From assembly GCF_009914755.1 (NCBI RefSeq), contig NC_060943.1: a DNA stretch of 64,000 nt; one strand, given 5' to 3'. The notes below the pieces were generated by a model, which made no database searches, was not told where the DNA came from, and worked only from the letters and a program-made list of their open reading frames with translations. Position numbers and translations under genes: made by a program. Source of the stretch: the human T2T-CHM13v2.0 reference genome, Homo sapiens. Numbering within the stretch: position 1 is the first letter of the stretch; each line of letters opens with the position of its first letter. This document shows positions 26,440 through 38,065 of this stretch, in pieces.

Positions 26440-26825
26440 GGAGAAAGAGGCAGGGCTGCAGGGGTCCGGGCAGATCTGGTTGTGGGGTGGGGGGTCTGTG
26501 AGAGGCAGGGATGCAGGGGTCTGGGCAGAACTAGTTGTGGGGTGCAGAGTCTGTGAGAGGCAGGACTGCAGGGTGAGCTCTGAGCAGAGCTGGTCATGGG
26601 GTGGGGAGTCTGTGAGAGGCAGGGGTGCAGGAGTCTGAGCAGAGCTGGTTGTGGGGTGCGGGGTCTGTGAGAGGCAGGGCTGCAGAGGTGCAGGTGTCTG
26701 AGCAGAGCTGGTCATAGGGTGGGGGGGGTCTGTGAGAGGCAGGGGTGCAGGAGTCTGAGCAGAGCTGGTTGTGGTGTGCGGGGTCTGTGAGAGGCAGGGG
26801 TTTGCAGGAGGGGAAGGATCTGAGC
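26440..26825. repeat. G-rich minisatellite, about 6 copies of a 54-66 bp unit
   Basis: Recurrent GTCTGTGAGAGGCAGG...TGCAG...TCTGAGCAGAGCTGGT...GGGGTG. Confidence 0.9.
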
Positions 26826-27000
26826 AGCCTGACTTGGGCTCGGGTGGGGTCCTCCTTACTTGACGTGCAGCTGCTGGTCTCCACTCTGCTCAGTCAGGCT
26901 TCACATCGGGTCTGATGAATCCGAGCACAGCAGGAAAGAGGGTAGAATGGAAGAGCATTTATGAGGATGGGTGGATCGTTTACTGAACAGTGGCATCTCA

Positions 27001-32592: not shown

Positions 32593-34485
32593 TCCTTTTT
32601 TCTACCCCCCTCCCTCTCAGTTCCTCTCTTCTTCTCTGGGCAGCTGCTCCTCTCTCTGCCTGCCAGCTCAGTTTCCTTGTGTCTACTACCCTTCCTTAGG
32701 GTGGGCCATGCCTCCAGTCCAGCCTGGGGAAGGGCCACTGTGGGTGCTCAGAATCAGAGACATGGGGAGGAGGCAATGATGGGGAGATTTAGGCACCCGC
32801 CTTCACTCCTGCTCCCTTAGAAAATCCAGATAGCAGCTGCCAAGTCAAGGAACCTGGGCTCTTCCCTCTACTGGATAAAGGTGGGGGCTCTAGAGTGGTG
32901 TGGGAGTCTAGCAGTCACACAGCGTGGTCAGAGCCAATACTGGGCACCTCTCTTTCTAAAAGTTGGATGTGAGGAGACCTGGTCCTTAATTTCTTCTGAA
33001 GAGAAGCCTGTTTATTCCTAGAGCTTTGAAAATACCGGACCTGGTTAATACACCCAGTCTATACAGTGAGCTTGGATCATTGAGGTCGTTTTATTATTAT
33101 TGTTGTTATTATTACTGATGTTTATTGTTGTTATAACCTTGACTAAAGTTTATCCATGAAATGGGTTTGATTTACTGAAGTTGTCGACAGAGGGTCCCCT
33201 ACACACACCTCGCACCCCGGCCTCCCAAGGTCATGTACATGCCAGGCAGGCAGTCCTATGAGCCCCGGGAAATTTTTAAGACTCCCTCTGAAGGAAGGGA
33301 CAGATCAGTGATGGCCTGAGAGGGCTATGGTGGGCGTCATCGGCCCGGCCTCCGTCCCATCTGGTGCTGGGTAGTCTTTATGAGACTCTAGGAAAATTTC
33401 CTAATCGTTCTCCAGGTCTCGGGAACCTCCTGTTCCAGCCAGGAAGTCTCGAGGTGAGTGTGTCCTTTGCTTGGCAGGGCCCAGTGATCACAGGAGGCTC
33501 GCCCCAAATTTCCCCAAGACTCCCTACTGGGGCCGGGCTGATTGCGTGCCGGCAGCCCTGGGTGAAGAAACTCCGTCCAAGGGGCACCAGGAAACGGCCG
33601 TGGATCAGGCCGCAGGCAGGGCACCCCCGCCGACCTGAAGACCCAGATCAGACCTGGTGCCGTCCATGCCACTTGTCGGGCGCCACCTGGCAGTCACTTT
33701 TAGAGGGTTTTCTCTGGCGCTCCGGAGAATTTTGGATGGGATATTACCCAGCTGCGGTGTCCACAGAAGCGTTCCAGGACCCTGGCAGCGGTGGCAGGCT
33801 CTTATCGGTGTTGACCCCATGCTATTGTGGAATAAATTCCTTGACCTTGTTCCTGCAGGGAAAGAGTGCTACGGCCTGGATATGGTCCCACATGGAGGCT
33901 GCTTATCAGATTCACTGTCCACAAGTTTATCAAAGCCCAGCTGATAAAATGAACATCACATCCCGTTTCTCCTAGTCACTTGTCCTCCTTCCCCAGGAAA
34001 CCTCTATCCAGTTGATAGTCTGGCCTTCCAGAAGATATTACAAGAAGGAAGGCTTTTCAGCACAGCATAGATTTGATGGCTGCAGGGACAGATATGGGGT
34101 GTTAATTAGCAAATTAGGCGTCTCTTTTCTACCCTTCCCTAAAGTGTACAATTGAAAAACACTGAAGTCCGCTGCTACGTGTCAGGCATTGTTTAGGGGC
34201 ACAGGGAGTCCCTGGCTAACAGGAAAGACAAGATGCCTGCTCTCTTAACGAGCCTGCTCTTCAGTGTGAAAGAAAAAAATAACCTAAGTTTATTTAAGCT
34301 TTGCTCTCAGATCACACGATTATAAAACAGGAGGAACCTGGTAGATAGTGTAAAGTATTTCACAGTGGGGAGACATTAGAAAGGGGGGTTTCCTAAGGAT
34401 GAGCACTTGCTTATAGGGAGACCAGACCTGGCTTTTCTTTAGCACTTGAAAGATGTCAGACCTGCTGGTGGTTGGACCCAGTCGA

Positions 34486-35433
34486 TGCTGCTGGTATGTG
34501 CTACCTGATCAGAGATGGTGAGCATTAACCCGTTTAAACCTGAGGTTGTGCTGCTGGTGTGTGCTACCTGATCAGAGATGGTGAGCATTAACCCGTTTAA
34601 ACCTGAGGTTGTGCTGCTGGTGTGTGCTACCTGATCAGAGATGGTGAGCATTTACCCATTTATACCTGAGGTTGTGCTGCTGGTGTGTGCTACCTGATCA
34701 GAGACGGTGAGCATTAACCCGTTTAAACCTGAGGTTGTGCTGCTGGTGTGTGCTACCTGATCAGAGACGGTGAGCATTAACCCATTTAAACCTGAGATTG
34801 TGCTGCTGGTGTGTGCTACCTGATCAGAGACGGTAAGCATTAACCCGTTTAAACCTGAGGTTGTGCTGCTGGTGTGTGCTACCTGATCAGAGATGGTGAG
34901 CATTAACCCGTTTAAACCTGAGGTTGTGCTGCTGGTGTGTGCTACCTGATCAGAGATGGTGAGCATTAACCCGTTTAAACCTGAGGTTGTGCTGCTGGTG
35001 TGTGCTACCTGATCAGAGATGGTGAGCATTAACCCGTTTAAGCCTGAGGTTGTGCTGCTGGTGTGTGCTACCTGATCAGAGACGGTGAGCATTAACCCAT
35101 TTATACCTGAGGTTGTGCTGCTGGTGCTACCTGATCAGAGATGGTGAGCATTAACCCGTTTAAACCTGAGGTTGTGCTGCTGGTGTGTGCTACGTGCTAC
35201 CTGATCAGAGATGGTGAGCATTAACCCGTTTAAACCTGAGGTTGTGCTGCTGGTGTGTGCTACCTGATCAGAGACGGTGAGCATTAACCCATTTATACCT
35301 GAGGTTGTGCTGCTGGTGTGTGCTACCTGATCAGAGATGGTGAGCATTAACCCGTTTAAACCTGAGATCGTGTTGCTGGTGTGTGCTACTTGATCAGAGA
35401 CGGTGAGCATTAACCCATTTGTATCTGAGGTTA
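34486..35433. repeat. 63-bp unit tandem repeat (VNTR-like), 15 copies
   Basis: Unit TGCTGCTGGTGTGTGCTACCTGATCAGAGA(T/C)GGTGAGCATTAACCC(G/A)TTTA(A/T)ACCTGAGGTTG; one unit is 59 bp and one is 70 bp. Confidence 0.97.
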
Positions 35434-35543
35434 CAGTTTTTAAATTTGAAAAATCGGACCTTGGTGATGACCTTGAGCAATAGGATATAAATAATTCCCA
35501 CATTCTTAGCATTCCAATAATGGAACACTAGGCATAAATGGGG
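35414..35543 (-). mobile_element. MER85 (non-autonomous piggyBac/PGBD3 element)
   Basis: 130 bp flanked by TTAA at 35410-35413 and 35544-35547; minus strand begins CCCATTTATGCCTAGTGTTCCATTATTGGAA, the MER85 TIR plus internal palindrome; other end CCCATTTGTATCTGAGGTT. Confidence 0.9.
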
Positions 35544-36369
35544 TTAATGCTTTCTTGAATAATTTATGAGAGTCTCCAAAAGTTCCAGTTTCACCCTCCC
35601 CCAATACCTATTTCTCCCTATCTTTACCTGTTCCAGATCGGTCCTTGGTCCAGCCCCCAGAAAGGCAGGTAACCCCAGGGCATCTTGTGCATGTCAGGGT
35701 TAGTGGGGGGCCCAGTGTGTGTACTGTAGACACCCATTTATTTGTTTTGTGGTGGAGCAGTTCATCATGAATCTTGCTGTTTGCACATGATCAGCTAAGT
35801 GAAAGGTCCATCCCCAGCCACCGTGACGCTCATTCCTGTGACCGCCCCCCCCACTCTCCTCTATATTGCCTTTGTGATTATAATTTGTGTGGACCAACTC
35901 CCATGCAGGATAATTTTGGACTATCAACATAAAGCAGCACAGCCTTGATAATGGGTGATCAGAAGCTCAGTGTGTTCCTCTCTCTATACTGAGGCTTACA
36001 ATAGACCTCCTGGGTCTTTGTGAACCCATAGTGTTCCCCGTGGGTTCTGTGTTCCATGACCAATGGTTTTCAGATGCTCAGTGTCCTTCCTGGTTGTTGG
36101 GGACCCATACCCAGCTGGCCCCTATGGCCATCTGACAGCACTTCAGATGTATGGCTGGTGGGAGGCACCTCACTCCTTGTTTGTCCTCTGATGCCCACAT
36201 ATTTCCTACCCTTGCCTGACAGCTCATTTGCCTCCCAGCATATGGCCAGAGGCACACCTTTAGCAACTCGGACAGAGCCCCCATTCATCCTGGGGCAGGT
36301 GGCCAGCTCTTTGTGGGAGCATGGCAGGCAACTGCGAAGTCTTCCACAGTGGGATAGAGAGTCCTGGGA

Positions 36370-37363
36370 TGTAGGGACCAGCCCTACAGGGTCTGTGGGT
36401 TTTTCTCCCCATGTGCGGAGACGAGAGATCATAGAAATAAAGACACAAGACCAAGAGATAAAAGAAAAAACAGCTGGGCCCGGGGAACCACTACCACCAA
36501 GACACAGTGACCAGTAGTGGCCCCGAATGCCAGGCTGCGCTGTTATTTATTGGATACAAGACAAGGGGGCAGGGTGAGCAGTGTGAGCCATCTCCAATGA
36601 TAGGTAAGGTCATGTGGGTCATGTATCCACTGGACAGGCGGCCCTTCCCTGTTTGGCAGCTGAGGTGGAGAGAAAGGAGACAGCTTATGCCTTTATTTTT
36701 GCATTTCAGAGACTTTTAGTACTTTCACTAATTCTGCTACTACCTAGAAGGCAGAGCCAGGTGTACAGGATGGAACATGTAAGCGGACCAGGAGCGTGAC
36801 TGCTCTGAAGCACAGCATCACAGGGAGACAGGCCTCTGGATAACTGCGGGCAGGCCTGACGGATGTCAGGCCCTCCACAAGAGGTGGTGGAGCAGAGTCT
36901 TCTCTAACTCCCCCGGGGAAAGGGACACTCCTTTTCCCAGTCTGCTAAGTAGTGGGTGCTTTTCCTGGGCACTGACGCTACCGCTAGACCAAAGTCGGCT
37001 AGGTAACGGGCATCTTCCCGGGCACTGGCATTAACGCTAGACTAAGGAGCCCTCTAGTGGCCCTGTCGGGGCATAATAGAAGGCTCACACTCTTGTCTTC
37101 TGGTCATTTCTCACTGTGTCCGTTCAGCTCCTATCTCTGTATGGCCTGGTTTCTCTTAAGTTATAATTGTAGAGAGAAGATTATTATTATAATGGAATAA
37201 AGAGTAATTGCTACAGACTAATGATTAGTAATATTCATATATAATCATATCTACGATCTATATCTAGTATAACTATTCTTATTTTATATGTTTTCTTTAT
37301 TATACTGGAACAGCTTGTGCCCTCGGTCTCTTGCCTCGGCACCTGGGTGGCTTGCTGCCCACA
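36370..37363 (-). mobile_element. LTR13 solo LTR (HERV-K13/HML-4)
   Basis: Minus strand TGTGGGCAGCAAGCCACCCAGGTGCCGAGGCAAGAGACCG...GGGCTGGTCCCTACA; perfect TSD CTGGGA (36364-36369, 37364-37369); minus-strand AATAAA at 36546-36551. Confidence 0.88.
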
Positions 37364-37499
37364 CTGGGAAATGTGTAAGTAACACGTCCTGGGTTGACAG
37401 GGTAGAATCTGAGTAATAAATTTGTGAATGAGCCCTTGGGGCTGAAATCAGGAACTCTGCAGGGACCCCAAAGCCCAGAACCCAATATTAAACACGGTG

Positions 37500-38065
37500 T
37501 TATGTGTCAGTTTGCTGGTGCTGCAGAATCAACGACCTCTACATTCAGTGTCATGGAACAACCACATCATGATTGCTCCTGAGTCCATAGGTCATCTCGT
37601 GATTCTGTTGATCTGGGCCAGGCTCAGTTGACCTTGATGGGGGGGTTGCTCACATGTCTGTGCTCAGCAGGTAGATAGACTGGATTCTGGTTCATCTACA
37701 AAGAACTCATTCACCTGTCCTCAGTTGTCTGGAAATAGGCTTTTCTGGGATGTCCTCAGCTGGGACATCAGGGCTCTGTCTCCTCCATGTGGTCTCTCAC
37801 CCTCCAACAGGCTGGCCAGAGGGTGTTCACATTGCTTTAATTTCCTGAGAAAGTGGAAGTACCAGAGTCCTTGAGCAAAGTCTTAACTCAAAACTGGCAC
37901 ATGATCGATCACTCCACAGTGTCCTATAGACCACAAATTCCACAGGGTGCAGACAGTCAAGGGAATGGGGACATGGATACCAAATCTTAATAGACGTAAA
38001 GTCATATTTTGCAAGTGTGTGAATGAGGAAGGAGAGATAATCAGGACTGTATCTGCAGCCTACCA
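37500..38065 (-). mobile_element. Old MaLR LTR (MLT1-type)
   Basis: CTCCATGTGGTCTCTCACCCTCCAACAGGCTGGCC and other MLT1-like segments. Confidence 0.6.

What the first reader, a model, noticed from the sequence alone, without database searches (positions are those of the whole stretch)
34486..35547. Tandem array of 15 piggyBac transposon ends: VNTR unit = flank + TTAA + MER85 terminal repeat
Seen: the 63-bp array runs directly into an intact TTAA-flanked MER85 (35414-35543). Each unit holds about 40 bp of the original flank, the TTAA site and the first ~20 bp of the element end (CCC[A/G]TTTA[T/A]ACCTGAGGTTG versus recalled consensus CCCATTTATGCCTGAGGTTG). So one intact MER85 end faces 15 nested copies of the other end (one copy has TTTA instead of TTAA). 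Some units keep the more consensus-like ATTTATAC, most carry GTTTAAAC. Known: MER85 is the non-autonomous partner of PGBD3, and the domesticated CSB-PGBD3 (ERCC6-PGBD3) fusion binds MER85 mainly via the palindrome GTTCCATTATTGGAAC near the 5' TIR; that palindrome is present once here (about 35511-35526) and is not amplified. Inference: the array may be a copy-number-variable docking platform or recombination substrate for piggyBac-derived proteins, or a length-variable regulator between IGFL2 and the IGFL1-like copies.
Basis: partly seen in the sequence, partly recalled or inferred. Interest (0 to 1): 0.8.

Follow-up and report, generated by a model that had tools for sequence, protein, structure and literature searches.

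The report
Minisatellite made from MER85 transposon junction
A 63-base unit made of 39 bases of unique flank, the TTAA target site and the first 20 bases of an old MER85 (piggyBac-type) element is repeated 15 times in an IGFL2 intron; the structure is real, but it is most likely an ordinary neutral transposon-derived minisatellite, and it lacks the sequence that the PGBD3 protein is known to bind.

Summary
Tandem Repeats Finder (TRF) gives a 63-bp x 15.0 array at 34486-35432. It runs into a TTAA-flanked 130-bp MER85 at 35414-35543. Each unit is 39 bp of single-copy flank, then TTAA, then the first 20 bp of the element. Fourteen units keep TTAA and unit 3 has TTTA.

Two corrections. The amplified end is the 3' end as defined by Gray et al. 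2012, which carries no palindrome. The 16-bp palindrome at 35511-35526 is a 15/16 C>T variant.

The functional reading is not supported. In that paper (passages) the TIR alone did not bind PGBD3 and no MER85 without the palindrome was bound. Only 6 of 199 C>T-variant elements were bound. No unit carries the palindrome.

Best reading: one 63-bp duplication across the transposon/flank junction, then expansion and homogenisation by unequal exchange. This is a transposon-derived minisatellite, a known kind. Two other MER85 loci carry the two-copy form. Three loci is about what chance predicts. Copy-number polymorphism, ape orthologues, ChIP occupancy and expression effects could not be tested here. 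Interest is low.

The parts
34486..35370 (+). 14 extra tandem units (units 1-14). Each is 39 bp of flank + TTAA (TTTA in unit 3) + 20 bp of the MER85 3' end. Unit 11 is 59 bp and unit 12 is 70 bp.
   Evidence: TRF; unit split and alignment; motif scan.
35371..35433 (+). Unit 15, the resident original junction: flank 35371-35409, TTAA 35410-35413, first 20 bp of the MER85 35414-35433. It is the most diverged unit, with 5-10 differences from the others.
   Evidence: Three of its 20 MER85 bases are private derived changes against the 29-copy majority.
34651..34654 (+). Degenerate target-site copy (TTTA) in unit 3.
35410..35413 (.). TTAA target-site duplication at the 3' end of the element (left in the window).
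35414..35543 (-). MER85 non-autonomous piggyBac-type element, 130 bp. Minus-strand orientation by the Gray et al. convention (palindrome end = 5' end, at the right).
   Evidence: 862 first-look candidates and 85-89% identity to the other scored copies; alignment with sharp boundaries at TTAA; 15 of 129 aligned bases (11.6%) differ from the 29-copy majority.
35511..35526 (-). The only copy in the window of the 16-bp PGBD3-binding palindrome, as a 15/16 C>T variant. It lies 3 bp inside the 5' TIR.
   Evidence: the definition of the palindrome comes from PMC3459987 passages.
35544..35547 (.). TTAA target-site duplication at the 5' end of the element (right in the window).

Best explanation
This is a single-locus minisatellite that arose from a MER85 insertion junction and does nothing in particular.

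Sequence of events:
1. A MER85 inserted at a TTAA in unique DNA (shown).
2. Later, one 63-bp tandem duplication spanned 39 bp of flank, the TTAA and the first 20 bp of the element's 3' end. This is inferred from all units sharing the same two breakpoints.
3. The two-copy state was expanded and kept homogeneous by unequal exchange, gene conversion or replication slippage. This is inferred from identical interior units, a diverged edge unit and a three-unit block pattern.

The extra TTAA+TIR copies are passengers of that process. They are not products of transposase action and not binding sites selected for a host protein. The array is expected to vary in length between people, as most arrays of this size and purity do (inference; not tested).
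For: - All 15 units share one flank start and one breakpoint inside the element (position 20). That points to one founding event, not repeated transposon-end events.
- Units 2, 7 and 8 are identical. Units 10 and 13 are identical. Units 11 and 12 equal the consensus apart from a 4-bp deletion and a 7-bp insertion. Units 8-10 and 11-13 repeat the same type order. This fits block duplication by unequal exchange.
- The resident edge unit is the most diverged. Three of its 20 MER85 bases are private changes, while interior units keep the family-majority base at those sites. This is the usual minisatellite picture of a homogenised interior and decaying edges. It also suggests an old origin.
- The unit and both 600-bp flanks are single-copy in the genome.
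- The two-copy precursor form exists at two other MER85 loci. L038 is 54 bp x 2: flank + TTAA + 18 bp of the 3' end. L039 is 62 bp x 2: flank + TTAA + 43 bp of the 5' end.
- Three loci in all is about the chance expectation. I get roughly 2.6 for about 1,800 MER85 ends if about 0.15% of the genome lies in such repeats. This is my own rough estimate from the 31,472 minisatellites and the 1.05 Mb in 7,276 transposon-derived ones given by Ahmed & Liang 2012.
- Transposon-derived tandem repeats are common: 23% of human minisatellites/satellites (PMC3389668, abstract and passages).
- There is no unusual single-strand folding (z -0.79, -0.55, 0.04), no Rfam match, and no exon or RefSeq functional element over the array (hub table).
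Against: - Neutrality is a default and was not shown. I had no population data, no ape orthologues and no ChIP or expression data.
- Junction-spanning duplications were found at the terminal 12-mer in 3 MER85 loci, against 0, 0 and 0 for three internal 12-mer controls. The two 3'-end events break at nearly the same place (positions 18 and 20). This hints weakly that the ends are prone to duplication.
- The test is underpowered. With exposure 2:3, P is about 0.06 counting the ascertained case and about 0.16 without it.
- I saw no direct repeat or microhomology at the array boundaries that would explain the founding duplication.
Confidence: 0.85

Rival explanations
1. The array is a copy-number-variable docking platform for CSB-PGBD3/PGBD3. 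The 14 extra TTAA+TIR ends recruit the domesticated transposase in proportion to copy number.
For: Each unit carries the TTAA and the 13-bp TIR of the element that PGBD3 once mobilised. CSB-PGBD3 binds 363 of 889 MER85s in vivo (PMC3459987 passages).
Against: In the same paper: only fragments with the 5'-most 42 bp shifted; the TIR is 'not sufficient'; no element lacking the palindrome was bound; some elements lacking TIRs were still bound. The palindrome is absent from the array at up to 3 mismatches. The amplified end is the 3' end. In 9 of the 15 units the TIR has 3 of 13 mismatches. The one resident palindrome is the C>T variant, bound in 6 of 199 cases.
Confidence: 0.03
2. The array is a substrate or fragile site for PGBD5 or another piggyBac-derived nuclease. 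Many nested TTAA+TIR ends face one opposite end, giving alternative excision or breakage points.
For: A 2025 preprint (PMC12324416; abstract and passages) reports PGBD5-dependent integration of MER85-flanked cassettes. It also reports PGBD5 ChIP peaks overlapping MER85 and tandem or inverted repeats.
Against: The same preprint says canonical transposition was not supported for MER85. It found the MER85 overlap in one of three cell lines (T98G) and ties binding to subterminal inverted repeats. The units lack these, and no unusual folding was found. The authors themselves describe PGBD5 activity as controversial. Unit uniformity points to unequal exchange and not to repeated cutting.
Confidence: 0.04
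3. The array is a length-dependent cis-regulatory VNTR for IGFL2, IGFL2-AS1 or the IGFL1-like copies.
For: Position only. It lies in an intron of the long IGFL2 transcripts, about 0.9 kb beyond the 3' end of IGFL2-AS1 and about 9 kb from IGFL1P1 (hub table). From recall, a minority of human VNTRs are expression QTLs.
Against: No RefSeq enhancer or silencer overlaps it; the nearest is 37462-37756 (hub table). No paper holds IGFL2 together with VNTR (0 papers). The 13 papers with IGFL2 and 'tandem repeat' appear unrelated: the 10 listed are cancer and drug-resistance papers, each with a single occurrence of the phrase, and I did not open them.
Confidence: 0.07
4. The founding 63-bp duplication, though not the later expansion, was a by-product of transposase action or of a protein-bound end. 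Examples are repair of a nick or hairpin at the TTAA/TIR, or fork stalling at the inner edge of a bound TIR.
For: Three MER85 loci have junction-spanning duplications, against none for three internal controls. The two 3'-end events break at positions 18 and 20, just inside the 13-bp TIR. No microhomology explains the founding event.
Against: The counts are tiny, not significant, and match my rough chance expectation. A scan allowing 2 mismatches added no further cases: 59 hits against 40 in the reversed-pattern control. The third case (L039) breaks 43 bp inside the other end. piggyBac excision is normally precise (established knowledge).
Confidence: 0.08

Closest known systems
Transposon-derived minisatellites of the human genome (Ahmed & Liang 2012, PMC3389668; abstract and passages read)
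   Same: A tandem array whose unit contains part of a transposable element. It began after insertion and was expanded by local duplication. Like most of their cases (6,817 of 7,276), its start is explained neither by flanking direct repeats nor by an incomplete terminal unit.
   Different: The unit straddles the insertion junction, so only 20 bp plus the TTAA come from the element and 39 bp are unique flank. The source is a DNA transposon, and 15 copies is many, since most of their cases have two units. In the passages I read I saw no mention of MER85 or of junction-spanning units; their supplements were not opened.
MER85 / PGBD3 system and CSB-PGBD3 binding (Gray et al. 2012, PMC3459987; passages read)
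   Same: The resident element is a typical MER85, with TTAA duplications, 13-bp TIRs and the internal palindrome 3 bp inside the 5' TIR.
   Different: What is amplified is the end without the palindrome, which did not bind PGBD3 in their gel shifts. [quoted passage not shown] I could not open their Table S1, so I do not know how this copy is listed or whether it was bound.
Satellite DNAs born from transposons and MITEs (for example McGurk & Barbash 2018, PMC5932611, and reviews PMC9659126 and PMC12628747; search listing and abstract openings only)
   Same: Transposon sequence is turned into a tandem array by local duplication and unequal exchange.
   Different: Those cases mostly involve whole elements, internal repeats or double insertions, and can reach large multi-locus arrays. 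This is one 0.95-kb locus, unique in the genome, made from a junction fragment.
Two-copy junction duplications at other MER85 loci in the same genome (L038, L039)
   Same: Flank + TTAA + element end duplicated head to tail next to the intact element.
   Different: They have two copies only. L039 duplicates the 5' end including the palindrome, while L038 duplicates 18 bp of the 3' end.

Membership tests
MER85 (non-autonomous piggyBac-type element, partner of PGBD3) | Full-length similarity to the dispersed genomic family | tested here: met
862 first-look candidates, 40 scored; apart from the query's own locus they are 85-89% identical over about 130-138 bp. 11.6% divergence from the 29-copy majority. 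No Dfam or RepeatMasker run was possible.
MER85 (non-autonomous piggyBac-type element, partner of PGBD3) | TTAA target-site duplication on both sides | tested here: met
   TTAA at 35410-35413 and 35544-35547.
MER85 (non-autonomous piggyBac-type element, partner of PGBD3) | 13-bp terminal inverted repeats | tested here: met
   The left TIR matches 10 of 13 to the majority. The right TIR is intact with one extra G.
MER85 (non-autonomous piggyBac-type element, partner of PGBD3) | 16-bp imperfect palindrome 3 bp inside the 5' TIR | tested here: met
   35511-35526, minus strand, 15 of 16 (the C>T variant).
Minisatellite / VNTR | Head-to-tail units of 10-100 bp | tested here: met
   63 bp x 15.0, 93% matches.
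Minisatellite / VNTR | Copy number varies between individuals | not testable with these tools
   Only one human assembly is held. No paper was found on this array.
Transposon-derived tandem repeat (sense of Ahmed & Liang 2012) | The unit overlaps or resembles an annotated transposable element | tested here: met
   20 of 63 bp plus the TTAA match the MER85 end with 1-5 mismatches over 24 positions.
CSB-PGBD3 / PGBD3 binding site | Presence of the 16-bp palindrome, which is required for binding in vitro and in vivo | tested here: not met
   No match in the array at up to 3 mismatches. The only copy is in the resident element.
CSB-PGBD3 / PGBD3 binding site | Occupancy in ChIP-seq | not testable with these tools
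   Tables S1 and S2 of PMC3459987 could not be opened.
Functional piggyBac transposon end (excision substrate) | TTAA + TIR + subterminal internal repeat or palindrome, with an active cognate transposase | tested here: not met
   The units have TTAA + TIR only, with no subterminal repeat. PGBD3 carries a change of the catalytic aspartate D352 to asparagine.

The most novel reading that the evidence does not exclude
The 13 extra TTAA+TIR ends (and one TTTA copy) are recognised by a piggyBac-derived protein. PGBD5 is the most plausible, given the reported ChIP overlap with MER85 and with tandem repeats. The array would then be a copy-number-variable site of binding or DNA breakage. Together with the two-copy cases at two other MER85 loci, it could also mark a class of junction duplications triggered at protein-bound transposon ends.
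Probability: 0.04. Interest if true: 0.6.

Novelty: new member of a known kind. Interest (0 to 1): 0.15.

Why it matters
As it stands, not much. It is a clean, datable example of how a minisatellite can start from a duplication across a DNA-transposon insertion junction, and the precursor two-copy state is preserved at two other MER85 loci.

It would matter more in two cases:
- If the array proved to be bound or cut by a domesticated piggyBac protein. It would then be a natural multi-copy TTAA+TIR substrate in the human genome, useful for the disputed question of what PGBD5 and PGBD3 recognise.
- If its length affected expression in the IGFL cluster.

Both are testable with existing long-read and ChIP data that I could not reach.

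Tried and rejected
- Supplementary Table S1/S2 of Gray et al. 2012, to see whether this MER85 was bound or listed as expanded.
- Earlier findings of the scan.
- Literature on this array. IGFL2 + VNTR gave 0 papers. MER85 + minisatellite gave 0. IGFL2 + 'tandem repeat' gave 13, of which 10 were listed; all are cancer or drug-resistance papers with a single occurrence of the phrase, and I did not open them. MER85 + tandem gave 4, none on an array.
- Other copies of the unit in the genome. None outside this locus. Paralogous empty site: none, because both flanks are single-copy.
- More junction duplications at other spacings. Gaps of 10-40 gave 2 hits, neither a MER85. Gaps of 70-100 gave 0. Allowing 2 mismatches gave 59 hits against 40 in the reversed control, with nothing new of MER85 type. 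L040 turned out to look like an L1 ORF2 internal repeat, which is my reading of the sequence.
- Hairpin-driven instability. The folding energies of two units on either strand, and of the element, are within shuffles.
- A recalled degenerate 13-mer recombination-hotspot motif. There are 8 in the window, none within 5 kb of the array.
- Coding potential. A minus-strand frame stays open over several units (70, 160 and 130 aa stretches) only because 63 is a multiple of 3. It is broken repeatedly and there is no reason to think it is coding.
- RNA families. No Rfam match in 33500-36500.
- Palindromic target site as a family feature. My script was too strict: only 2 of 29 other copies had both TTAA junctions intact by its pattern, so it was uninformative.

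Full report
**1. What is there**

TRF finds a 63-bp period, 15.0 copies, 93% matches and score 1621 at 34486-35432. It is the strongest tandem repeat in the window by a wide margin.

The array ends inside a 130-bp element at 35414-35543 flanked by TTAA on both sides. An 11-nt inverted repeat, AGCATTAACCC / GGGTTAATGCT, joins the two junctions.

**2. The element is a MER85-type element, and the unit contains its end**

The stretch 35410-35547 has 862 first-look candidates in the window's own genome. Forty were scored; apart from the query's own locus they are 85-89% identical over nearly the full length. That number fits the 889 and 905 MER85 copies counted in two papers (passages).

I aligned 30 copies with 45 bp of flank on each side. 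The flanks are unrelated, and homology starts immediately after TTAA.

Scanning the whole window, both strands, for this 24-mer at up to 5 mismatches gives 15 hits. All are in the array, one per unit, with 1-5 mismatches.

The unit is therefore 39 bp of flank + TTAA + the first 20 bp of the element. The 126-bp two-unit query finds no other locus in the genome. The 600 bp on either side are single-copy.

**3. Which end is amplified**

Gray et al. 2012 (PMC3459987; passages) orient MER85 by the PGBD3 reading frame. They place a 16-bp imperfect palindrome 3 bp inside the 5' TIR.

In the window that palindrome occurs once, at 35511-35526 on the minus strand, with one mismatch. The element is therefore on the minus strand. 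Its 5' end is at the right, and the array multiplies the 3' end, which has no palindrome.

The mismatch is the C>T change that the paper discusses. It barely reduced binding in vitro, yet only 6 of the 199 elements that carry it were bound in ChIP-seq.

**4. Anatomy of the array**

- There are 15 units: thirteen of 63 bp, one of 59 bp (4-bp deletion) and one of 70 bp (7-bp insertion).
- Fourteen keep TTAA. Unit 3 has TTTA.
- There are two main unit types. A consensus-like type carries ATTTATAC and, in units 10 and 13, GACGG (units 3, 10, 13; 1-2 mismatches to the family 24-mer). A derived type carries GTTTAAAC and mostly GATGG (3 mismatches).
- Units 2, 7 and 8 are identical, and so are units 10 and 13.
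- Units 8-10 and 11-13 show the same order of types, as a three-unit block duplication would give.
- The resident junction (unit 15) is the most diverged, with 5-10 differences from the others.
- In its 20 MER85 bases, three changes (positions 8, 11 and 20) are private, while interior units keep the family-majority base. One change (position 10) is shared by the resident and 13 of the 14 extra units, so it predates the duplication; unit 9 alone carries the family-majority base there.
- The whole resident element differs from the 29-copy majority at 15 of 129 aligned positions. Four of these are a variant shared with several other copies. The 29 copies were the best matches to this one, so they are a biased sample.

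I infer that the founding duplication is old, a sizeable part of the element's residence time. The burst of MER85 copying ended about 35 million years ago. The interior has kept turning over since.

**5. Mechanism**

All units share the same two breakpoints, so there was one founding 63-bp duplication. Expansion by unequal exchange, conversion or slippage followed. This step is inferred, not shown.

I see no direct repeat or microhomology at the boundaries. That is also true of most transposon-derived tandem repeats in Ahmed & Liang 2012: 6,817 of 7,276 were unexplained by the two classical models. Single-strand folding of two units or of the element is no better than shuffles.

**6. Is a transposon end special?**

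A whole-genome pattern scan looked for two copies of the terminal 12-mer 40-70 bp apart. It finds the window array and three other places.

- L038 is a MER85 with a 54-bp x 2 duplication of flank + TTAA + 18 bp of the 3' end.
- L039 is a MER85 with a 62-bp x 2 duplication of flank + TTAA + 43 bp of the 5' end, palindrome included.
- L040 looks like an L1 ORF2 internal repeat, so it is a chance match (my reading of the sequence).

Other spacings add nothing of MER85 type. Allowing 2 mismatches adds nothing either: 59 hits against 40 in the control.

Three internal 12-mers of the element gave 0, 0 and 0. Three against none is suggestive. With exposure 2:3 it gives P of about 0.06, or 0.16 once the ascertained case is dropped.

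Three junctions is also about what I expect if roughly 0.15% of the genome lies in such repeats. That is my rough estimate from the figures. I do not claim an excess.

**7. The functional proposal**

For PGBD3, the published data speak against the array as a docking site:
- Only 5' fragments shifted in gel shifts.
- The TIR was 'not sufficient'.
- No palindrome-less element was bound in cells.
- Elements without TIRs could still be bound.

The array has no palindrome at up to 3 mismatches. Most of its TIR copies carry 3 of 13 mismatches. PGBD3 itself has lost a catalytic aspartate according to the same paper.

For PGBD5, I read the abstract and passages of a 2025 preprint (PMC12324416).
- It reports PGBD5-dependent integration of MER85-flanked cassettes.
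- It reports ChIP overlap with MER85 in one of three cell lines.
- It states that canonical transposition was not supported for MER85.
- It links binding to subterminal inverted repeats, which the units lack.

An earlier paper only raises the possibility that PGBD5 might act on such elements (PMC4625184, passages).

For regulation, the only support is position. No RefSeq functional element or exon overlaps the array (hub table), and there is no Rfam match.

**8. What remains open**

Copy-number polymorphism, age in other primates, protein occupancy and expression effects could not be tested. They may show whether this MER85 was bound.

I found no paper describing this array. It must appear in any TRF-based repeat track (inference). 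Its junction origin may simply never have been remarked upon.

**9. Verdict**

The structural interpretation is correct. The functional interpretation is unsupported and, for PGBD3, contradicted by published binding rules.

This is a new example of a known kind, a transposon-derived minisatellite. It is unusual only because its unit spans a DNA-transposon insertion junction and has reached 15 copies. Interest is low (0.15). The boldest reading still allowed is recognition by a piggyBac-derived protein. I give it about 4%.

Noticed in passing
L039:1486-1610 (G000:C6:61550969-61551042 region): A MER85 whose 5' end has been duplicated once (62 bp x 2.0, 98% matches), together with 15 bp of flank and the TTAA. 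The locus therefore carries two copies of the PGBD3-binding palindrome, one perfect and one with a single change. This makes it a natural two-site MER85.
   Followed up: partly
L038:1469-1590 (G000:C2:83941850-83941915 region): A MER85 with a 54-bp x 2 duplication of flank + TTAA + the first 18 bp of its 3' end. The design is the same, and the breakpoint nearly the same, as the founding unit of the window array (position 18 against 20).
   Followed up: partly
window 35406-35416 and 35541-35551: The inverted repeat at the two junctions extends 4 nt beyond each TTAA (AGCA / TGCT). The pre-insertion target would therefore have been a perfect 12-bp palindrome, AGCATTAATGCT. The chance of this is about 1 in 256. 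My check across other copies was uninformative.
   Followed up: partly
window 26446-26851: A second, G-rich minisatellite with period 55/114/120, about 3-6 copies and 79-87% matches. It ends about 10 bp upstream of exon 26860-26911 of the lncRNA LOC105372424.
   Followed up: no
L040:1448-1725 (G000:C10:87158435 region): A 70-bp x 4.0 tandem repeat inside what looks like the start of an L1 ORF2. It was picked up only because its unit contains a chance match to the piggyBac-type terminal 12-mer.
   Followed up: no
window 34525-35370 (type B units): Two substitutions in the amplified TIR (A to G and T to A) created a perfect 8-bp palindrome, GTTTAAAC, now present in 9 units. The flank part of every unit holds another 8-bp palindrome, CTGATCAG. 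No unusual folding resulted.
   Followed up: partly
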